Source: Candidatus Woesearchaeota archaeon
GTDB lineage: Archaea; Nanobdellota; Nanobdellia; SCGC-AAA011-G17; JACPNG01
Length of the DNA stretch: 64,000 bases
NCBI GenBank assembly: GCA_018303365.1
Contig: JAGVYI010000016.1
Coordinates: forward strand, 15,330 to 79,329
Direction: 5' to 3'
Positions 3,910 to 63,819 of this stretch are shown here, piece by piece; positions within the stretch are counted from its first letter, which is position 1; each line of letters starts with the position of its first letter. Under the pieces are notes generated by a model, which worked only from the letters and a program-made list of their open reading frames with translations, had not been told where the DNA came from and searched no databases. Made by a program: the position numbers and the translations under genes.

Positions 3910-4413
3910 TTGAAGGTAAGTCGAGAAACTGATGTTAATAGGATCTTGGACGAATTTTCAGGCAAGTTACCACAGTTTCCAGATGGCAGGATTGACTATT
4001 CCGAATCTTTGAGGGCACCAGTTATAACTTGTTTTGTAAGATTTAAAGATAAAGTTCTTCTTTTGAAAAGAAGCGATAATGTTGGGGCATATCGGGGAAA
4101 GTGGAATGCTGTTGCTGGCTATATTGATGAAGCAAAACCTCTCTCTATGAAGGTGATGGATGAACTCAAAGAGGAGCTTGGAATTCTACATGATGATATT
4201 CTTAGGATTGAATTTGGTGCGCCTTATGAATTTTATGACCTTGGTATAGAAAGGACATGGATTATCTATCCATGTGTTGCTGATTTAAGAAATAACCGAA
4301 AAATAAGGCTTGATTGGGAGCATACTGCGTTTAAGTGGATCTATCCTGATGAAATATTTGATTATGATATTGTTCCACGCTTAGATGAAAGCTTAAACCG
4401 TGTATTGGGGTAG
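3910..4413 (+). CDS. NUDIX hydrolase.
   Basis: Nudix box GYIDEAKPLSMKVMDELKEELGI. The start codon (TTG at 3910) is uncertain. Confidence 0.65.
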   Translation: MKVSRETDVNRILDEFSGKLPQFPDGRIDYSESLRAPVITCFVRFKDKVLLLKRSDNVGAYRGKWNAVAGYIDEAKPLSMKVMDELKEELGILHDDILRIEFGAPYEFYDLGIERTWIIYPCVADLRNNRKIRLDWEHTAFKWIYPDEIFDYDIVPRLDESLNRVLG

Positions 4414-14577: not shown

Positions 14578-14602
14578 CTTTTGCTTTCTATAAATTTTTC
14601 AG

Positions 14603-15141
14603 AAACATTTATTAATAACTCATTAAACATTAATTTCAATGAAAAAGAGGTCAAAGAAGAAGCCTTCTTCCAAGTTTTACCATCACCAGCTTTACATTCC
14701 AATCATTCTTGTTCTTTCTTTTGCTTCCCTTGCTTTGCTTTGGATATTTAGCACAGGTGCAACCGGTTATGCCACCTACAGCTTCGGCAACACTGTTCCG
14801 CAGGGGTTTGGAGTTCCGTGGAATGTATTTTCTTCACAGCATGAGAATATAATAAGCTCATCAAACGGAATGATTACTGCCCAGGCAGACTATGTCTATA
14901 AGTATGGCTATGTGTGGGATGGCAGCCAATGGACGCGCTTTGAGTTTCCACAGCAAAAGGTGTCTAATAATTGGGTTGCAAGAGAAGCTTCTTTTGATGT
15001 TAACAGTCTTGGTCTTACTGCTGGAGAATATTCTGTTGTTGCATATACATGCCAGTATGTGAATAAGGAATGGAAGTGCGGCTGTCGAACCTCACAGTGT
15101 CGAAACGGTGTTGATGGTGGTATGTGGCAGTTGCAGAAGGT
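14603..15141 (+). repeat. Direct repeat copy A, about 540 bp: promoter plus 5' coding region shared with 21063..21607.
   Basis: Manual alignment gives about 85-90% nt identity, including the TATA box, the ATG, the signal anchor and the CQYVN.EWKCGCRTSQCR domain. Confidence 0.8.
14608..14618 (+). promoter_or_regulatory. Archaeal TATA box (TTTATTAATAA) centred about 26 nt upstream of the ATG of paralog A; implies a leaderless transcript.
   Basis: An identical element at identical spacing precedes paralog B (21068..21078). Confidence 0.45.
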
Positions 15142-20209: not shown

Positions 20210-21060
20210 TTAATTTCAAGAAAGAATATTTTGTCGGCATCAGTCTTGCTTTGGTTTTACTAGTTCTAGATGTCTTGTTTCTTCGCTCTACCCGCTGGTT
20301 TATTGCTATTATTATTGTTTCTATCAATATTGGCTGGCTTCAGTTCTGGATTGACTTTTTTCGTGAACAGAACCGTCAGAAGGAAATTGATACAAAATTT
20401 CTTGAGTTTGTTCGCAATCTTGTCAGCACTGCCAAATCCGGTCTTTCAATTCCCAGGGCTATTATTCAAGCTTCTGGTGAGGACTATGGCGCTCTTACAC
20501 CATATGTTCGAAAGCTTTCTCACCAGGTTGAGTGGGGTGTTCCTGTTGAAAAGGCTCTTTTGACCTTTGCAAAGGATACTCGAAATGCTGTGATCAGCAG
20601 GTCTGTTTCTATTGTTATTGAAGCGAGCAAGGCTGGCGGTGATATAGAAAATGTTCTTGATTCTGTTACTGATTCTGTGATGTACGTAAAGAAAATCAAG
20701 CAGGAGAGGAAAAGCGGAACGTACTCGCAAATAGTCCAGGGTTATATTGTTTTTTTTATTTTCATTGCAATAATGCTTGTTTTGCAGCTCTGGCTTTTTC
20801 CACAGTTTTCTAATTTGAAAGGTCTTGGCCAAGGCGGCTCAGAGCTTGCTGGTTCTCTTGGTACAGGTGCTATTTTCGGTGAAGGAAAGCGTGCTGACAT
20901 AGATAGCATTTTTTTTAGTCTTATTCTTGTACAAGGTTTTTTTTCGGGAGTTATGATTGGTGCGTTCTCTGAAGGAAGCGTGAAGCGCGGTCTTTTGCAT
21001 TCTCTTGTTTTGATGACTCTTGCAACGCTTATTATTACAACTGCGAAGGGCGGGATTTAG
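20206..21060 (+). CDS. FlaJ/TadC-like membrane platform protein, second half.
   Basis: A second GspF-like domain between TM segments. ATGA overlap with the first half. Confidence 0.6.
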   Translation: MINFKKEYFVGISLALVLLVLDVLFLRSTRWFIAIIIVSINIGWLQFWIDFFREQNRQKEIDTKFLEFVRNLVSTAKSGLSIPRAIIQASGEDYGALTPYVRKLSHQVEWGVPVEKALLTFAKDTRNAVISRSVSIVIEASKAGGDIENVLDSVTDSVMYVKKIKQERKSGTYSQIVQGYIVFFIFIAIMLVLQLWLFPQFSNLKGLGQGGSELAGSLGTGAIFGEGKRADIDSIFFSLILVQGFFSGVMIGAFSEGSVKRGLLHSLVLMTLATLIITTAKGGI

Positions 21061-21062
21061 CA

Positions 21063-21607
21063 AAACATTTATTAATAACCCATTAAACATTAATTTTAAT
21101 GAAAAAGAGATCAAAGAAGAAGCCTTCTTTTAAGTTTTACCATCACCAGCTTTACATTCCAATCCTTCTTGTTCTTTCTTTTGCCTCCCTTGCTTTGCTG
21201 TGGATATTTAGCACCGGTGCGACTGGTTATGCCACCTACAGCTTTGGCAACACTGTTCCGCAGGGGTTCGGTGTTCCTTGGAATTTGTTTTCCAGTCAGC
21301 ATGAGAACTTGCTTGATTCTTCTGATAATACAATAAATGTTAAGGCAACTTTTGTCTATAAGTGGGGTTATATATGGGATCATAATGTCAGGCAGTGGAA
21401 GGGGTTTGAGTTTCCACAGCAGAAGGTATTTAATAATTGGGTTGCAAGAGAGGCTTCTTTTGATCTTAATAGCTTAAACCTTGTCCCTGGAGAGTATTCT
21501 GTTGTTGCCTATACCTGCCAGTATGTGAATAATGAATGGAAGTGCGGCTGTCGAACCTCACAGTGTCGAAGCGGTGTTGATGGAGGCATGTGGCAGATAC
21601 AGAAGGT
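21063..21607 (+). repeat. Direct repeat copy B (partner of 14603..15141).
   Basis: See copy A. Confidence 0.8.
21068..21078 (+). promoter_or_regulatory. Archaeal TATA box (TTTATTAATAA) for paralog B; leaderless spacing.
   Basis: Same element and spacing as at 14608. Confidence 0.45.
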
Positions 21608-35987: not shown

Positions 35988-36108
35988 GGGCCCATAGCTT
36001 AGCCTGGAGATTTTCGGGCAATTGGAGCACCGGTCTTATACGACCACTTCCGGTATAAATTACCTCTAAGAAAGCCGGGGGTCCCCGGTTCAAATCCGGG
36101 TGGGCCCA
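35988..36108 (+). tRNA. tRNA-Ile (anticodon UAU) with a canonical 32-nt intron between positions 37 and 38, and about 14-15 extra nt in the D-loop (possible second intron).
   Basis: Acceptor GGGCCCA/TGGGCCC, T-arm CCCGG-TTCAAAT-CCGGG, anticodon stem CCGGT/GCCGG, loop CUUAUA|intron|A. A 4-bp BHB helix CUUA:UAAG is flanked by 3-nt bulges. Confidence 0.6.
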
Positions 36109-36113
36109 TTTTT

Positions 36114-36632
36114 ATGAAATCTCGCGTTTTTGTTAATAAGGTAGAGATAGAGCATCTTAATTGGCTGAGTGTTTGCACAGGTGTTCCTATTTCGTATAAG
36201 GGTGGTGTAGATTTAGCAAACGAGGCAATAGGTATTGAACTTAAGTCACGCCTTCTAAAACCTCGTTCTATAGAGCCTTATCCTAACTTCGCTGTTCATG
36301 AATATCAGTTCAAGTTGTTTCCTGAAGAGAAGCCTGACAGGGAACTTTTTTGGGCGTTTATGCTTTATAACCTTGACATCCCTATTTCTTCTATTAGGGG
36401 CGATAGTGATTTAAAAAAGTATATTGTTGATAGGAGAGTTTGGTTTTTTGATTGGGGTTATGTCAGTCAATTTCCAGTATCAAACGTAAAGACAGGGCCT
36501 TATATTTATGTGCATGGCCGGTCTTTTGCCTCTGAGAAATTCAACTCTTTTGAAGTAGAAGGCGGCTTATTGTATTTTCCTGTTGGTTCTTCATTAGAGG
36601 AGAAGCTTTCTTTTTTGACGAAAAACAATTGA
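36114..36632 (+). CDS. Hypothetical protein with a possible PD-(D/E)xK nuclease-like motif.
   Basis: GGVDLANEAIGIELK gives D...E.K spacing. Weak. Confidence 0.25.
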   Translation: MKSRVFVNKVEIEHLNWLSVCTGVPISYKGGVDLANEAIGIELKSRLLKPRSIEPYPNFAVHEYQFKLFPEEKPDRELFWAFMLYNLDIPISSIRGDSDLKKYIVDRRVWFFDWGYVSQFPVSNVKTGPYIYVHGRSFASEKFNSFEVEGGLLYFPVGSSLEEKLSFLTKNN

Positions 36633-37126: not shown

Positions 37127-37582
37127 GAGTATCTTTAATTCAAATATCTTTCAGGTTTTTTTATTCTTGAACTTTATTCGGTGTCATGGAGATGTGCAAG
37201 CAATTTCTCTAGATCGGGAATCGGGATTTCTACATGACCCCAAACCTTCGCCTCAATACTATCATCAACATCATTGCGACCTGCTTTTCTAACACAATTT
37301 ATATGGACTGCTTCTCTGGACTGGGTAATTGTATAATAATCATAAATGACGTCAGGCTTACCATTTCTATGCCTCGGAATTAAATTTTCCATAACCCTTC
37401 CATCATGGCCTTCGTAGATTGTCTCACCGTTCCGCTTCAAAATATAATAATCCATACCGATAAAGGCATCAACTACCTTATAGAAATATGTGTTGGTAAA
37501 TATGAGTTTTTCAAAAATATTCTTTAATAGCATGAACTTTTGTAATGAGGTTACCCTTTGCTCTTTTCTGTGGCCAATCATT

Positions 37583-37628
37583 TCGCCCTTTCGAGGCGAA
37601 GACCCGGGTTCAAATCCCGGCCGGAGCA
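37583..37628 (+). tRNA. tRNA-Glu (anticodon UUC) 3' portion, positions ~27-73. No canonical 5' acceptor or D-stem is found upstream.
   Basis: Anticodon arm UCGCC-CUUUCGA-GGCGA, T-arm CCGGG-UUCAAAU-CCCGG, acceptor 3' CCGGAGC-A. Upstream GCUC....GUGGCCAAUCAU resembles a degraded tRNA-Glu 5' part. Confidence 0.5.
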
Positions 37629-37648
37629 CTTTGTTTCTGATATAGAGA

Positions 37649-60236: not shown

Positions 60237-61571
60237 ATGGAATTTTGTGCAGTTGGCGGTTATAGTGAAGTTGGCCAGAATATGAGTGCCCTTCGTGTCG
60301 GTGATGAGGTTGTAACCCTTGATATGGGTTTTTATCTTCCTAAACTTATGGATTTTGAAGAGGAGGGGGGGGATAGGCGAAATCTTACAACTGATGGGCT
60401 TATACGTCTTGGTGCTATTCCTAATGATGCTCCTCTAGCAAAATGGCGGCCACTTACAAAAGCGGTTGTTCTTAGTCATTGCCACTTAGACCATCTCGGT
60501 GCAACACCCTACCTTGCTCCGCGCTATGGAAATGCCCCTGTTCTTGGCACACCGTACACTACACGTGTTCTTCGTGACATGATCCGCGATGAGCGTCTTT
60601 CTTTCAAGCAACCTATTAAGACAGTCAATCCTAACTCATTTATTCGCGTTTCAAAAAATATTGAAATTGAATTTATTGGCGTTACTCACAGTACAATCCA
60701 AACCGCAATAGTCGCGGTCCACACACCAGAAGGGATTGTGCTTTATGCAAATGATTTTAAATTTGACCAGCATCCTATTGTAGGACAGAAACCAAATCTA
60801 AAACGTCTTCGACAGTTCAGCAAGGAAAATGTTGTCGCACTTGTTATTGATGCTCTTTATGCCCATGCGCCTGGAAAGACCCCCTCTGAGCGTGTTGCCA
60901 GGCATATGCTTGAAGATGTTCTTTTGAATTCCGATAATGCTGGAAATGCTATTTTTACGACCACTTTTGCTTCCCATATCCCTCGCTTGAAGAGCCTGAT
61001 TGAATTTGGCTCAAAGCTTAACCGCAAGGTTGTCTTTTTAGGCCGTAGCCTTTTGAAATATGCCCGTGCTGCTGAAGCGATTCAGGCAGTTAATTTCTCT
61101 TCACAGGCAGAGATTGTAGGTTCTGCAAACAGAATTGCTGCCAAGCTTCAGGAAATTGAGAAAAAAGGAAAGGATAATTACCTTGTTGTTTGCACTGGAG
61201 GGCAGGGAGAGCAGACCTCTGTTCTTAATAAGATAATGACCAAGCAACTTCCTTTCGATTTTGCTGCAGATGATCATATGGTGTTTTCCAACAGGACCAT
61301 CCCTGTTCCTATTAATATCGCCAATCGTGCCAGGCTTGAAGAGAAGCTCCGTCGCCGTGGTGTCCGCATTTTTAAGGATGTTCATGTCTCAGGGCATGTT
61401 TTTAGGGAAGACATTCGTGACTTATTTAAAATGGTCAAGCCACAGCATGTTATTCCCTGCCAGGGGAACAGCACGGTTCTTAGTCCATGCGTCGAACTTG
61501 CCAAAGAATGTGGCTATCAAGAAGGAAAGTCTGTTCATTTATTTCATGATGGTCAGAAGATTTCTTTGTGA
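60237..61571 (+). CDS. rnj: Archaeal RNase J (beta-CASP metallo-beta-lactamase ribonuclease).
   Basis: HCHLDHLGA motif and beta-CASP motifs; about 445 aa, typical of aRNase J. Confidence 0.75.
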   Translation: MEFCAVGGYSEVGQNMSALRVGDEVVTLDMGFYLPKLMDFEEEGGDRRNLTTDGLIRLGAIPNDAPLAKWRPLTKAVVLSHCHLDHLGATPYLAPRYGNAPVLGTPYTTRVLRDMIRDERLSFKQPIKTVNPNSFIRVSKNIEIEFIGVTHSTIQTAIVAVHTPEGIVLYANDFKFDQHPIVGQKPNLKRLRQFSKENVVALVIDALYAHAPGKTPSERVARHMLEDVLLNSDNAGNAIFTTTFASHIPRLKSLIEFGSKLNRKVVFLGRSLLKYARAAEAIQAVNFSSQAEIVGSANRIAAKLQEIEKKGKDNYLVVCTGGQGEQTSVLNKIMTKQLPFDFAADDHMVFSNRTIPVPINIANRARLEEKLRRRGVRIFKDVHVSGHVFREDIRDLFKMVKPQHVIPCQGNSTVLSPCVELAKECGYQEGKSVHLFHDGQKISL

Positions 61572-61653
61572 GGACTTAATATATCGCTAATAAATGAAAG
61601 GCAACATTTTTCGTTCGAAATGTTTAAATAAATGAAGTATTTATTTAAATGAC

Positions 61654-61911
61654 ATGGTGAAAACAAGACCAAAAGATTCAGGCGAACATCATGGGCGGCG
61701 AAAGAGAAAAGCAGATGAAGTCTCTTGCTATTCCTGTGGTGGTGTACTAAAGAAATCGCTTAGTATTTGCCCTAAATGTAAGAGCAAACTAAAAAAAGAA
61801 ACCGAAGCAGATAGCAACAAATCAAAGGGAAGCGTAGGTTGGTTAATTTTTTGGATACTATTTTTTTGGCCTGCCGCGGTTATATATTTTTTTATGAGAA
61901 GATGGGAGTAG
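61654..61911 (+). CDS. Zn-ribbon small membrane protein.
   Basis: CYSCGG...CPKC ribbon plus a C-terminal TM. Confidence 0.35.
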   Translation: MVKTRPKDSGEHHGRRKRKADEVSCYSCGGVLKKSLSICPKCKSKLKKETEADSNKSKGSVGWLIFWILFFWPAAVIYFFMRRWE

Positions 61912-61999
61912 TTTAATTTACCCTTTTAAATATGAAGAACTGCTCCCCGTTCTTGATGTGTTACATTCACTTTTTAATAGAACCTTGTTAATCATGTTA

Positions 62000-62073
62000 T
62001 GGACTCGGCGGGATTCGAACCCGCGGCCCCCGCCTTGCGAAGGCGATGCTCTACCAGACTGAGCTACGAGCCC
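62000..62073 (-). tRNA. tRNA-Ala (anticodon CGC).
   Basis: GGGCUCG acceptor with a G3:U70 wobble, anticodon loop UUCGCAA, T-loop UUCGAAU. Confidence 0.85.
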
Positions 62074-62482
62074 TTATGAAGTTATCTGCTTTTTCAATCA
62101 ATCCATTTAGGTTTTTAAACTTTAAGAGTTTTTGTGCTTCTTCTTTTTCAGCCCACATGAAAGCTTCATGCTCATCTGACAGGATGACTTTATCTTCTTT
62201 TGTTTCTCCAAGAAAGTATGTGACTTCTTTTTTTACTTTATTTCCTTGAAAATAATATATCCAGTATGTTTTTTCTTTGAAGTTGTCTTCCAACTTAATA
62301 TCATCTAATCCAGTCTCTTCTTTTGTCTCTCTTCTTGCTGTTTTTTCATCTGACTCTCCTTTTTCTTTGGTTCCTTTCGGAAAATTGAAGTTAGTGTGCC
62401 CCTTTCCTTTTAATAGGAGATACTCCACTCTACCATTTTTCTCTTTATATACAATAATTCCTGCTGATATTTCGCTTTTCAT
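62051..62482 (-). CDS. NUDIX hydrolase.
   Basis: Nudix box GKGHTNFNFPKGTKEKGESDEKTARRETKEETGL. Start placed at MKSEISAG. The last 7 codons run into the 5' end of tRNA-Ala. Confidence 0.65.
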   Translation of the reverse strand: MKSEISAGIIVYKEKNGRVEYLLLKGKGHTNFNFPKGTKEKGESDEKTARRETKEETGLDDIKLEDNFKEKTYWIYYFQGNKVKKEVTYFLGETKEDKVILSDEHEAFMWAEKEEAQKLLKFKNLNGLIEKADNFIRARSSVW

Positions 62483-62486
62483 TTTA

Positions 62487-62561
62487 TGGGGTTGCCCGGA
62501 TTTGGACCGGGGTCTGGGCATCCCGAATGCCCGATGCTCGTCCAAGCTACACCACAACCCC
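62487..62561 (-). tRNA. tRNA-Pro (anticodon CGG).
   Basis: Acceptor GGGGUUG/CAACCCC, anticodon arm GGGCA-UUCGGGA-UGCCC, T-arm CCCGG-UCCAAAU-CCGGG. An extra G lies at -1. Confidence 0.75.
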
Positions 62562-62616
62562 CTTGTATATGTGACATTACAGCTATCTTTATAAAAATCG
62601 CTGCTGTCTTTACTTT

Positions 62617-63819
62617 ATGAAGTTTGCCCATCTTGCTGACTGCCATATTGGTGGCTGGCGAGAAGAATCCTTGAAGGCTCTTGGCATAAAATCCTTTGAA
62701 AGAATAATGGATATTTGTATTAAAGAGCATGTTGGATTTATCCTTATTGCTGGTGACCTCTTTAACACGGCTATCCCATCTATAGACCTTCTACGCGAGA
62801 CTGCAGCCCTACTTCGCCGCGTTCGTGACCATGATATTAATGTTTATATTATTCCTGGAAGCCATGATTTTTCTTATAGTGGTAAGACTATGCTTGATGT
62901 TCTTGAAGAGGCTGGTTTAGTTCATAATGTTATGCGCTTTGATGATGATGGAAAACTTGTCTTTACAACAGACAAAACAGGGGTTAAGTTAACGGGTCTT
63001 CTTGGTAAAAAGGGGGGTCTTGAGCGTCTTGATTATGAGCGCCTTTCACGAGAGCATCTTGAGAAAGAAGCAGGGTTTAAGATTTTTTTATTTCATACCC
63101 TTATCAATGAATTCAGGCCTCCCGAGCTTGAGATGGTTGATAGTACCTCCGTTGCCACCTTACCAAAAAATTTCCATTATTATGCGGGTGGGCACCCTCA
63201 TTTTGTTTTTAAAACCTCTTTTTCAGATGGCATTCTTTCCTACCCAGGACCTTCTTTTCCGAATAACTTTAAGGAGCTTGAAGAGCTTGGTTGCGGAGGA
63301 TTTTACATTGTTGATGATAAGCTTAACATTCGCCATATCCCAATTCGCCTGAAAGAAGTTGTTTCTTATGTGTTTGATGCCGCTGACAAGACTCCTGATG
63401 CTATTGAAAGAGACGTAATTTCAACTGTCAAAGATGTTACAGACAGGATTGTTACTTTGCGTTTTGAAGGGGTGCTTTCTTCTGGCAAACCTTCTGATAT
63501 TAATTTTCGCAACATTTTCTCAAACCTTTCTTCTGCTTACTGTGTGCTCAAGAATACGCATAAACTAACAAGCAAGGAGTTTATTGAAGAGGAGACTATT
63601 GCTTCAGAGCAAATCTTAGAGATTGAGTCTTCAGTTGTTCGGGATAATAAGAGCCCTGTCGATATTTCTTCTTTTGGTATTTCCAATATAGAGTCTTTTG
63701 TTTCCTCTCTTATGGTCTGTCTTAATACAGAGAAACAAGACGGGGAGAAGAATGCTGATTTTGAGAAGCGTGTTGTCCGCAATGTTTCTTCGTTGTTCTC
63801 CCTGCAGGAGAATTTATAA
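62617..63819 (+). CDS. mre11: Mre11 DNA double-strand-break repair nuclease.
   Basis: Phosphoesterase motif I MKFAHLADCHIG, motif II GDLF, motif III GSHD. Confidence 0.8.
   Translation: MKFAHLADCHIGGWREESLKALGIKSFERIMDICIKEHVGFILIAGDLFNTAIPSIDLLRETAALLRRVRDHDINVYIIPGSHDFSYSGKTMLDVLEEAGLVHNVMRFDDDGKLVFTTDKTGVKLTGLLGKKGGLERLDYERLSREHLEKEAGFKIFLFHTLINEFRPPELEMVDSTSVATLPKNFHYYAGGHPHFVFKTSFSDGILSYPGPSFPNNFKELEELGCGGFYIVDDKLNIRHIPIRLKEVVSYVFDAADKTPDAIERDVISTVKDVTDRIVTLRFEGVLSSGKPSDINFRNIFSNLSSAYCVLKNTHKLTSKEFIEEETIASEQILEIESSVVRDNKSPVDISSFGISNIESFVSSLMVCLNTEKQDGEKNADFEKRVVRNVSSLFSLQENL

What the first reader, a model, noticed from the sequence alone, without database searches (positions are those of the whole stretch)
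62000..62561. tRNA-Pro - Nudix mRNA - tRNA-Ala packed with 4-nt and negative spacers on one strand
The Nudix CDS starts 4 nt after the tRNA-Pro 3' end. Its last seven codons (ARSSVW*) are read from the first 23 nt of tRNA-Ala, and the stop codon is the UAG inside the D-loop. The mRNA would be liberated by tRNA 3' and 5' end processing. Cleavage at the tRNA-Ala 5' end by RNase P would remove the stop codon from the message. This is an unusual arrangement. It could couple Nudix expression to tRNA processing, or yield a non-stop transcript.
Basis: seen in the sequence. Interest (0 to 1): 0.5.

Follow-up and report, generated by a model that had tools for sequence, protein, structure and literature searches.

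The report
tRNA–Nudix–tRNA gene pack in archaeon
In a tiny-genome (DPANN) archaeon, a small housekeeping enzyme gene is wedged between two tRNA genes so tightly that it starts 4 bases after one and borrows its stop codon from inside the other; this looks like an extreme but explicable case of genome compaction rather than a new kind of system.

Summary
On the minus strand lie tRNA-Pro(CGG) at 62561-62487, a 4-nt spacer (TAAA), a 143-aa Nudix gene (ATG 62482, stop 62053-62051) and tRNA-Ala(CGC) at 62073-62000. The overlap is 23 nt, and the stop is the conserved U20-A21-G22 of the tRNA.

A second, independent assembly (99.8% identical, no indels) has the same layout, so it is not a sequencing error.

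The organism is a Woesearchaeota-like DPANN archaeon that uses leaderless mRNAs. Nudix has neither a TATA box nor a Shine-Dalgarno site. tRNA-Pro has a canonical promoter but, unlike most tRNAs in relatives, no T-tract terminator.

The best reading is one transcription unit. RNase Z cutting behind tRNA-Pro would make a quasi-leaderless Nudix mRNA. The overlap is a tolerated by-product of compaction: the seven-residue tail lies in the family's variable C-terminus, and conserved tRNA bases supply stop codons.

Relatives show milder versions: 1- and 10-nt CDS-tRNA overlaps, and rpoH 12-25 nt behind tRNAs. None shares this exact arrangement.

RNA-level coupling and non-stop mRNA formation remain untested. 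It is a new variant of known tRNA-mRNA co-transcription, of moderate interest.

The parts
62588..62595 (.). Palindromic TATA box TTTATAAA, centre of a 24-bp near-palindrome (62580-62603). Inferred bidirectional promoter for tRNA-Pro (minus strand) and the leaderless Mre11-like gene (plus strand, ATG 62617).
   Evidence: PWM score 8.8, near the maximum. It ends 26 nt before tRNA-Pro position 1 and 21 nt before ATG 62617. These match the lineage norms of 22-27 nt for tRNAs and 19-23 nt for leaderless genes. Function is inferred.
62487..62561 (-). tRNA-Pro(CGG), 75 nt, no encoded CCA, C55 in the T-loop
   Evidence: ARAGORN; Rfam RF00005 47.8 bits against a gathering score of 29.
62483..62486 (-). 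4-nt spacer TAAA between the tRNA-Pro discriminator and the Nudix ATG. It would be the whole 5' UTR after an RNase Z cut.
   Evidence: Sequence. No T-tract follows the tRNA, unlike 24 of 36 tRNAs in relatives.
62051..62482 (-). Nudix hydrolase CDS (143 aa plus stop), Ap4A-hydrolase-like family
   Evidence: Pfam PF00293, E = 6e-16. 85 homologues, several named bis(5'-nucleosyl)-tetraphosphatase. Alignment A1.
62112..62119 (-). TATA-like box TTTAAAAA inside the Nudix 3' end, 38 nt upstream of tRNA-Ala. Possible internal promoter for tRNA-Ala, or incidental to the conserved F-K-N codons.
   Evidence: PWM score 9.1. Background is 0.7 hits per kb per strand at a score of 8 or more. The FKN motif is conserved in the family.
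62074..62076 (-). Out-of-frame TAA directly abutting tRNA-Ala position 1. It may be a remnant of an ancestral stop codon.
   Evidence: Sequence and frame analysis. The ancestral-stop reading is speculative.
62051..62073 (-). 23-nt overlap: the Nudix codons (R)ARSSVW plus stop are tRNA-Ala positions 1-23. The stop UAG is U20-A21-G22.
   Evidence: Between the window and L001, two adjacent differences (62058 and 62057) fall at D-loop positions 16/17 and change V to A.
62000..62073 (-). tRNA-Ala(CGC), 74 nt, G3:U70 present, no encoded CCA, no T-tract after it
   Evidence: Rfam 69.4 bits; ARAGORN. Its acceptor, D and T arms form in the co-transcript context.
61791..61797 (-). First run of five or more T (T7) on the minus strand downstream of the unit. 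Candidate archaeal terminator, about 200 nt past tRNA-Ala and antisense to the zinc-ribbon gene.
   Evidence: T-run scan. Function is inferred.
35988..36108 (+). Second tight junction in the same genome: a two-intron tRNA with anticodon loop CUUAUA (reads as tRNA-Ile UAU), followed by TTTTT and then the ATG of ORF172.
   Evidence: Rfam 47 bits; own detector. A TATA-like TATTTAAA ends 24 nt upstream (read by eye).
36114..36632 (+). ORF172, a conserved Woesearchaeota hypothetical protein that starts 5 nt after the tRNA
   Evidence: Homologues at 40-45% identity cover 96-97% of the query at lengths of 160-180 aa. In relatives the gene follows protein-coding genes, not tRNAs.

Best explanation
tRNA-Pro, Nudix and tRNA-Ala form one compact minus-strand transcription unit in a Woesearchaeota-like DPANN archaeon.

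Inferred steps:
1. Transcription starts about 4-5 nt upstream of tRNA-Pro, from the TATA box at 62595-62588.
2. No T-tract terminator follows tRNA-Pro, so the polymerase runs through Nudix and tRNA-Ala.
3. Endonucleolytic 3' processing of tRNA-Pro (RNase Z) leaves an mRNA that begins UAAA-AUG. That is effectively a leaderless mRNA, which is this organism's main mode of translation initiation.
4. The Nudix frame has no stop of its own and ends at the conserved U20-A21-G22 of tRNA-Ala.
5. The resulting seven-residue tail is dispensable.
6. The overlap is a tolerated by-product of genome compaction, not an evolved switch.

The consequence is that, on any one transcript, complete translation of Nudix and 5' maturation of tRNA-Ala exclude each other. 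A terminating ribosome would cover the tRNA's 5' half. Once the tRNA folds and is cut at position 1, the mRNA has no stop codon. tRNA-Ala may also be made from a TATA-like box inside the Nudix 3' end.

Shown here: the geometry, the presence or absence of promoter, terminator and Shine-Dalgarno signals, and the comparison with the lineage. Inferred: every RNA-level step.
For: Geometry is confirmed, and the frame is verified in an independent assembly.

Organism and initiation mode. RNase J homologues are named Woesearchaeota or Nanoarchaeia, and archaeal markers are present in the window. First-in-unit genes have a TATA 8-mer ending 19-23 nt before the ATG, which means leaderless mRNAs; internal genes carry GGAGG or GGTGA sites.

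Nudix has neither signal. No TATA-like hit scoring 5 or more lies between 62588 and its ATG. The 15 nt upstream are the tRNA 3' strand plus TAAA.

tRNA-Pro has a top-scoring TATA at 26 nt; the lineage mode is 24-25 nt. It has no T-tract, whereas 24 of 36 tRNAs in relatives do, and most of the exceptions are followed by another tRNA or by a close ORF. No run of five or more T occurs within the unit.

tRNA-Ala has no TATA at the normal distance, only one at 38 nt.

Lineage precedents:
- Tandem tRNAs 3-6 nt apart imply that tRNAs can be excised from multi-gene transcripts.
- rpoH lies 12-25 nt behind tRNAs in three relatives and 47 nt behind in a fourth.
- RNase J lies 13-22 nt behind a tRNA in L068.
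- Real genes end in TA|G, using tRNA G1, in L013 and L015, and at U8-A9-G10 in L017.

The tail is dispensable. Homologues end 0-13 residues after the KAxxFL helix, and the tail shows V/A variation between strains at tRNA-variable positions.

Conserved tRNA bases often spell stops: TAG at positions 8-10 in 18 of 39 tRNAs, TAG near positions 20-22 in 10 of 39, and G1 in 33 of 39.

Literature:
- In N. equitans, RNase Z generates the 5' end of a downstream RNA from a tRNA dicistron (PMC3491384).
- In T. kodakarensis, tRNA-Lys lies in the 5' UTR of TK0306 (PMC4247193).
- In E. coli, the secG-leuU transcript is separated by RNase P (PMC7049720).
Against: There are no transcript data at all; TSS, processing sites and termination are all inferred from sequence motifs.

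Archaeal promoters can be weak or atypical, so absence of a PWM hit does not exclude a Nudix promoter inside tRNA-Pro.

The strong TATA-like box 38 nt upstream of tRNA-Ala could make tRNA-Ala largely independent of read-through.

The arrangement could not be tested for conservation. The only close relative (L001) is essentially the same strain, and more distant relatives lack it.

Whether this organism has RNase P, RNase Z or Pelota is unknown. None was found among the window ORFs scanned against Pfam, and not every ORF was scanned.

It is untested in this lineage whether an mRNA with a 5'-monophosphate and a 4-nt leader is translated efficiently.
Confidence: 0.55

Rival explanations
1. Largely independent units. 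tRNA-Ala is made mainly from its own promoter, the TTTAAAAA box at 62119-62112 inside the Nudix 3' end, with a TSS near 62090 and a leader of about 17 nt. Nudix mRNAs that read through simply carry an unprocessed or slowly processed tRNA at their 3' end. The overlap then has little effect on either product.
For: The box has the top PWM score (9.1) and lies 38 nt upstream. The chance of a hit scoring 8 or more in a 26-nt window is about 0.02. L017's overlapped tRNA likewise has a strong TATA at 46 nt, and L040's at 39 nt. In T. kodakarensis, about 30% of the internal TSSs found within coding sequences lie near ORF 3' ends (PMC4247193).
Against: The box encodes K-F-K-N, and F-K-N is a conserved family motif in an AT-rich genome, so it may be incidental. 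Its distance of 38 nt is outside the 22-27 nt mode for tRNAs. Read-through transcripts would still contain a foldable tRNA-Ala that RNase P should cut. This rival also does not explain how Nudix itself is transcribed.
Confidence: 0.25
2. An evolved regulatory coupling. The overlap is selected so that RNase P cleavage at tRNA-Ala converts the Nudix mRNA into a non-stop message. This would limit Nudix output to the first rounds of translation, or tie it to tRNA-processing capacity, as a prokaryotic version of mitochondrial tRNA punctuation.
For: The geometry permits it. CDS-tRNA contacts recur in the lineage. The same genome has a second junction at 5 nt. Non-stop mRNAs arise in human mitochondrial gene expression (PMC9674279).
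Against: The arrangement is not conserved in any relative examined, and the module is a lineage-specific insertion. The tail residues are not conserved between strains and lie in the family's variable region. Unlike mitochondria, the cut message cannot regain a stop by A-addition: the frame leaves ...AUA A, and adding A gives AAA. Tolerance plus compaction explains everything that is seen.
Confidence: 0.08
3. Artefact or decay: a frameshift from sequencing or assembly, a mis-called ORF end, or a Nudix or tRNA pseudogene.
For: An out-of-frame TAA abuts the tRNA, so a 1-nt indel would give a conventional stop. This is metagenome-derived sequence.
Against: An independent assembly shows no indel in 5.9 kb. 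There is no homopolymer between the last family-aligned residues (NFI) and the TAA. The alignment fixes the frame through I137. The Nudix domain is intact. Both tRNAs score well above the Rfam threshold and have intact identity elements.
Confidence: 0.04

Closest known systems
Dicistronic tRNA-sRNA and tRNA-mRNA transcripts in archaea: N. equitans tRNA-Val/sRNA8 (PMC3491384) and T. kodakarensis tRNA-Lys in the TK0306 5' UTR (PMC4247193)
   Same: A tRNA with a box-A/TATA promoter lies directly upstream of another gene on the same strand. RNase Z cleavage at the tRNA 3' end is proposed to create the 5' end of the downstream RNA.
   Different: Here the downstream RNA is a protein-coding message left with only a 4-nt leader, so it is leaderless-like. 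In T. kodakarensis the tRNA lies within a 159-nt 5' UTR, and in N. equitans the downstream partner is a C/D box sRNA.
E. coli secG-leuU mRNA-tRNA operon, separated by RNase P (PMC7049720 and the work it cites)
   Same: A protein-coding gene is followed on the same strand by a co-transcribed tRNA, and the tRNA's 5' end is released by RNase P.
   Different: In E. coli the cleavages described lie downstream of the secG mRNA, so the message would keep its stop. Here the stop codon is 21-23 nt inside the tRNA, so the cut removes it.
Mitochondrial tRNA punctuation (PMC3790967, PMC8437803, PMC9674279)
   Same: An mRNA is flanked immediately by tRNAs on one strand. RNase P and RNase Z cuts define the mRNA ends. 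Coding sequences abut or overlap tRNA genes, and non-stop mRNAs are a known by-product.
   Different: This is an archaeal chromosome with ordinary promoters at most genes. Only some tRNAs are embedded this way. An incomplete stop cannot be completed by A-addition in this frame. No RNA evidence exists.
N. equitans leaderless tRNAs, 'life without RNase P' (PMC10100707, PMC3491384)
   Same: A related phylum. Box A sits at a near-fixed distance upstream of tRNA genes (26 nt in N. equitans, 22-27 nt here), with T-stretch terminators after the tRNAs.
   Different: tRNA-Ala here, and the tandem tRNAs 3-6 nt apart in relatives, cannot be made leaderless. 5' endonucleolytic processing must therefore exist in this lineage.

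Membership tests
tRNA (Rfam RF00005) | Cloverleaf scoring above the Rfam gathering score of 29 bits | tested here: met
   tRNA-Ala scores 69.4 bits. tRNA-Pro scores 47.8 bits in a tight scan. ARAGORN draws a cloverleaf for both.
tRNA-Ala identity | G3:U70 wobble pair in the acceptor stem | tested here: met
   GGGCUCG / CGAGUCC pairs G3 with U70. That this pair defines alanine identity is established knowledge.
Nudix hydrolase (Pfam PF00293) | NUDIX domain above the curated cutoff, with the Nudix box | tested here: met
   59.1 bits against a cutoff of 21.1. The box residues G37, E43, R51, E52, E55, E56 and G58 are invariant or nearly invariant in A1.
Ap4A hydrolase (asymmetrical bis(5'-nucleosyl)-tetraphosphatase) subfamily | Ap4A-hydrolysing activity | not testable with these tools
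   Homologues at 33-49% identity are given this name by their sources. That is annotation, not an assay.
Mitochondrial-type tRNA punctuation | mRNA immediately flanked by tRNAs on the same strand | tested here: met
   A 4-nt spacer at the 5' side and a 23-nt overlap at the 3' side.
Mitochondrial-type tRNA punctuation | mRNA ends generated by RNase P and RNase Z cleavage of a polycistronic precursor | not testable with these tools
   Indirect only: Nudix has no promoter or Shine-Dalgarno site, and the unit has no terminator.
Mitochondrial-type tRNA punctuation | Incomplete stop codon (U or UA) completed by 3' A-addition | tested here: not met
   After a cut at tRNA position 1 the frame ends ...AUA A, and adding A gives AAA (Lys). 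The adjacent TAA is out of frame. L013 and L015 do end in TA|G.
Archaeal primary leaderless mRNA | TATA box about 19-23 nt upstream of the start codon, so that the TSS coincides with the AUG | tested here: not met
   No TATA-like hit lies within 105 nt upstream of the Nudix ATG. A leaderless-like 5' end could arise only by processing.
RNase P-independent (leaderless) tRNA genes as in N. equitans | Every tRNA has box A at a fixed distance so that transcription starts at tRNA position 1 | tested here: not met
   tRNA-Pro fits roughly (26 nt). tRNA-Ala has no box at that distance. Relatives have tandem tRNAs 3-6 nt apart with no promoter between them.
mRNA-tRNA operon of the secG-leuU type | Co-directional CDS and tRNA with no terminator between them | tested here: met
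   No run of five or more T on the minus strand between 62587 and 61798.

The most novel reading that the evidence does not exclude
This DPANN lineage uses tRNA genes as general punctuation and expression modules for mRNAs, an archaeal counterpart of mitochondrial tRNA punctuation. tRNA promoters drive the downstream protein genes. RNase Z cuts create leaderless mRNAs. Conserved tRNA nucleotides (G1, U8-A9-G10, U20-A21-G22) serve as the stop codons of upstream genes. RNase P cleavage then turns those messages into non-stop mRNAs, which sets their translational lifetime.
Probability: 0.12. Interest if true: 0.65.

Novelty: new variant of a known kind. Interest (0 to 1): 0.35.

Why it matters
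If RNA mapping confirms it, this would be a clear prokaryotic case of two things. First, tRNA 3' processing would manufacture a leaderless mRNA. Second, a gene's stop codon would lie inside a downstream tRNA, so tRNA maturation and complete translation would compete for the same transcript. That would extend tRNA-punctuation logic from organelles to free-standing archaeal genomes. It would also show how far compaction can go in DPANN archaea.

There is a practical point as well. Annotation pipelines that forbid CDS-tRNA overlaps, or that run tRNA finders with default filters, would mis-call these loci. In this window, two of the four tRNA or tRNA-like elements were missed entirely by default settings, and Rfam at default settings also missed tRNA-Pro.

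Tried and rejected
- Sequencing-error or frameshift reading. Rejected: an independent assembly has no indels, the frame is fixed by the alignment, and there is no homopolymer at the critical spot.
- 'tRNA-Pro is not a real tRNA', because Rfam missed it at default and at E<=1. Rejected: it scores 47.8 bits in a tight scan.
- Looking for conservation through Nudix orthologues. The genome-contig scan found only relatives at 29-30% identity. The contexts of Nudix homologues at 44-49% identity (L002-L004) have no tRNAs nearby. Nudix homologues in L073 and L019 are not adjacent to tRNAs.
- Looking for conservation through the RNase J anchor. The closest orthologues, at about 60% identity, have different downstream genes. 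80 metagenome loci show that RNase J->Mre11-like gene order is ancestral and that the tRNA-Nudix-tRNA block is an insertion.
- ARAGORN intron mode as a tRNA census. It proved unreliable, with spurious calls and a missed two-intron tRNA. I replaced it with a T-arm/acceptor detector.
- The MgtC gene (37649) as a third tRNA->ORF example. Rejected: the Pfam match starts at residue 36 and a TATA box lies within the first codons, so the real start is probably downstream.
- Whether ORF172 homologues also follow tRNAs. They do not; they follow protein-coding genes with 4-nt overlaps.
- Mitochondria-style completion of the stop by A-addition. Rejected on frame.
- A Pfam survey of about 49 of the window's roughly 70 ORFs for RNase P subunits, RNase Z, Pelota, CCA-adding enzyme or splicing endonuclease. 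None was found. This is uninformative for a 64-kb sample.
- Foreign origin of the block. Its base composition and GC3 are only slightly below those of its neighbours, so this is inconclusive.

Full report
**Observation.** All features lie on the minus strand.
- ARAGORN calls tRNA-Pro(CGG) at 62561..62487 and tRNA-Ala(CGC) at 62073..62000.
- The Rfam tRNA model scores tRNA-Ala at 69.4 bits.
- Rfam missed tRNA-Pro at its default settings and at E<=1. It scores 47.8 bits, against a gathering score of 29, when only 111 nt are scanned. The miss was therefore a filter artefact.
- tRNA-Pro has a perfect acceptor stem, two G-U pairs in the D-stem and an unusual C55 (T-loop UCCAAAU). tRNA-Ala has the G3:U70 pair. 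Neither gene encodes CCA.

The Nudix ORF runs from ATG 62482 to TAG 62053-62051 (143 aa; Pfam NUDIX, E = 6e-16). It begins 4 nt (TAAA) after the tRNA-Pro discriminator. Its final 23 nt are tRNA-Ala positions 1-23. The stop is U20-A21-G22, which is the end of the D-loop plus the first base of the D-stem 3' strand. Only this frame enters the tRNA. An out-of-frame TAA abuts tRNA position 1.

**Not an error.** The protein database holds a 143-aa protein that is 99% identical (P0001). Its contig (L001, an ENA assembly) is 99.8% identical to the window over 5,908 nt, with 11 mismatches and no gaps, and has the same two tRNAs. In an alignment of 26 family members, the frame is supported through ...EKADNFI. 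All members start 3-5 residues before the SAG motif, which supports ATG 62482 as the start. No homopolymer lies between the NFI codons and the TAA.

**Organism and expression signals.** RNase J homologues are named Woesearchaeota, Nanoarchaeota or Nanoarchaeia, with the best at 61% identity. The window also encodes aIF2-gamma, RpoE/Rpb7, Kae1 and OapB/OapC. So this is a DPANN archaeon with about 92% of the window in long ORFs.

Upstream regions show two modes of initiation. First-in-unit genes have a TATA-like 8-mer ending 19-23 nt before the start codon, which means leaderless mRNAs. Operon-internal genes carry GGAGG or GGTGA sites. Nudix has neither. The only TATA-like hits upstream of it belong to the tRNA-Pro promoter, at least 105 nt away.

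**Comparison with the lineage.** I used an RNase J alignment to fetch 80 related loci, about 0.86 Mb, at 48-59% RNase J identity. A purpose-built detector (T-arm plus complementary acceptor strands) found about 36 confident tRNAs in them.
- The typical tRNA is self-contained. A strong TATA 8-mer ends 22-27 nt before position 1, with a mode of 24-25. A T-rich tract follows the discriminator in 24 of 36 tRNAs. [quoted passage not shown]
- tRNAs without a T-tract are mostly followed by another tRNA 3-6 nt away or by a close ORF.
- The window's tRNA-Pro has a top-scoring TTTATAAA at 26 nt but no T-tract.
- tRNA-Ala has no box at the normal distance, only a TTTAAAAA at 38 nt inside Nudix, and no T-tract.
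- No run of five or more T occurs on the minus strand from 62587 down to the T7 at 61797-61791.

**Lineage precedents for both halves.**
- tRNA followed by mRNA: rpoH (Pfam Rpb5_C, E about 1e-27) follows tRNAs by 12, 16, 25 and 47 nt in four relatives at 45-62% identity. RNase J follows a tRNA by 13-22 nt in L068. At least four of these spacers are too short to hold a promoter.
- CDS running into a tRNA: a metallophosphoesterase in L013 and a Sua5/YrdC protein in L015 end in TA|G, where the G is tRNA position 1. A membrane protein in L017 stops at tRNA U8-A9-G10.
- Conserved tRNA bases often provide stops. G1 occurs in 33 of 39 tRNAs, TAG at positions 8-10 in 18 of 39, and TAG near positions 20-22 in 10 of 39. 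The overlaps seen are 1, 10 and 23 nt, one for each of these three sites.

**A second instance in the same genome.** A two-intron tRNA with anticodon loop CUUAUA, which reads as tRNA-Ile(UAU), lies at 35988-36108 (47 bits). It is followed by TTTTT and then the ATG of ORF172. ORF172 is a conserved Woesearchaeota protein whose homologues cover 96-97% of it. In relatives this gene follows protein-coding genes with 4-nt overlaps, not tRNAs.

**The arrangement is lineage-specific.**
- Nudix homologues at 44-49% identity (L002-L004) have no tRNAs nearby, and the genome collection held nothing closer.
- Nudix homologues in L073 and L019 are not adjacent to tRNAs.
- RNase J followed by the Mre11-like gene is a conserved gene order in about 18 relatives. 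In L084 and L021 the two genes are only 53-55 nt apart.
- In the window they are separated by about 1,045 nt. This stretch holds a zinc-ribbon gene on the plus strand and the tRNA-Ala/Nudix/tRNA-Pro block on the minus strand. The block is therefore an insertion.

**The tail is unconstrained.** Family members end 0-13 residues after the KAxxFL helix. Between the window and L001, two adjacent substitutions (62058 and 62057) fall in the overlap at tRNA D-loop positions 16/17 (UC versus CU). These positions are variable in tRNAs. The change turns V into A in the tail. The overlap thus appears to evolve under tRNA rules.

**Mechanism (inferred).**
- Transcription starts about 4-5 nt upstream of tRNA-Pro and reads through Nudix and tRNA-Ala.
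- RNase Z cutting after the tRNA-Pro discriminator gives an mRNA that begins UAAA-AUG. This resembles the organism's leaderless messages.
- tRNA-Ala's acceptor, D and T arms form in the context of the co-transcript.
- A ribosome terminating at tRNA positions 21-23 would cover the tRNA's 5' half. Once the tRNA folds and is cut at position 1, the message lacks a stop.
- The stop cannot be restored by A-addition, because the frame would end ...AUA A.
- The TATA-like box 38 nt upstream may add an independent supply of tRNA-Ala. However, it encodes the conserved F-K-N motif and may be incidental.

**What is known.** The individual elements have precedents:
- RNase Z creates the 5' end of a downstream RNA in N. 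equitans (PMC3491384).
- A tRNA sits inside an mRNA 5' UTR in T. kodakarensis (PMC4247193).
- RNase P separates secG mRNA from leuU tRNA in E. coli (PMC7049720).
- Mitochondria use tRNA punctuation and produce non-stop mRNAs (PMC3790967, PMC9674279).

My searches found no archaeal description of tRNA punctuation or of a stop codon inside a downstream tRNA. A 2026 survey of 208 Nanobdellota genomes does not address tRNA-CDS junctions.

**Verdict.** It is best read as an extreme, strain-level outcome of genome compaction built on a lineage habit of embedding tRNAs in operons. It is a new variant of a known kind and of moderate interest. All RNA-level steps remain to be shown.

Noticed in passing
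window 35988-36108 (+): A tRNA with two insertions, about 17 nt in the D-loop and about 33 nt after position 37. Its anticodon loop CUUAUA reads as tRNA-Ile(UAU). Default ARAGORN and Rfam at the gathering threshold both missed it. It scores 47 bits in a local scan.
   Followed up: partly
window 37560-37629 (+): A tRNA-Glu(UUC)-like element (27 bits, just under threshold). Its anticodon arm, T arm and 3' acceptor strand are perfect, but its 5' acceptor strand and D arm are degenerate (GCUC-UUUUCUGU-GGCCAAUCAU). No matching 5' half (GCTCCGG...) occurs elsewhere in the window. It could be a piece of a split tRNA or a decayed gene.
   Followed up: partly
window 62580-62603: A 24-bp near-palindrome, CAGCTATC-TTTATAAA-AATCGCTG (20 of 24 positions symmetric), centred on the TATA box. 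It is placed correctly to drive both tRNA-Pro (minus strand, 26 nt) and the leaderless Mre11-like gene (plus strand, 21 nt). It may be a bidirectional promoter or a regulator binding site.
   Followed up: partly
window 62498-62508 (-): The tRNA-Pro T-loop is UCCAAAU, with C at position 55 where nearly all tRNAs have U (pseudouridine 55). L001 shows no difference from the window anywhere in tRNA-Pro, so it carries the same base.
   Followed up: no
window 61924-61999 (-): The 3' flank of tRNA-Ala (TAACATGA...) nearly repeats that of tRNA-Pro (TAAAATGA...). It opens a 23-codon ORF 4 nt after the tRNA. This is probably chance, but it is the same junction motif.
   Followed up: no
L021 17736-17937, L030 18642-18829, L041 8922-9103, L026 near 3406: A conserved cluster in relatives. 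In L021, L030 and L041 two tandem tRNAs lie 3-6 nt apart and rpoH follows 16-47 nt downstream. In L026 a single detected tRNA is followed by rpoH at 12 nt. This implies a tRNA-rpoH co-transcript that leads the RNA polymerase operon.
   Followed up: partly
L013 3414-4295; L015 15035-15574: A metallophosphoesterase gene and a Sua5/YrdC gene end in TA|G, where the G is position 1 of a Pro-like (GGGG...CCCCA) intron-containing tRNA. A cut at the tRNA 5' end would leave an incomplete UA stop.
   Followed up: partly
window 60237-63819 versus L084, L021, L017 and others: RNase J followed by the Mre11-like phosphoesterase is a widely conserved gene pair in these DPANN archaea. The gap between them ranges from 53 nt to several kb, so it appears to be a hotspot for insertions.
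   Followed up: partly
window 14600-14641 and 21060-21101 (+): Two genes (450 aa and 577 aa, neither with a Pfam hit checked) share a nearly identical promoter and 5' region of about 38 nt (AACATTTATTAATAAC-CATTAAACATTAATTT-AATGAAA). This suggests paralogues or a duplicated regulatory cassette.
   Followed up: no
window 3910-4413 (+): A second, more divergent Nudix gene (Pfam E = 3e-9) lies in the same window next to an isochorismatase-like gene. Nudix function is therefore not unique to the tRNA-flanked copy.
   Followed up: no
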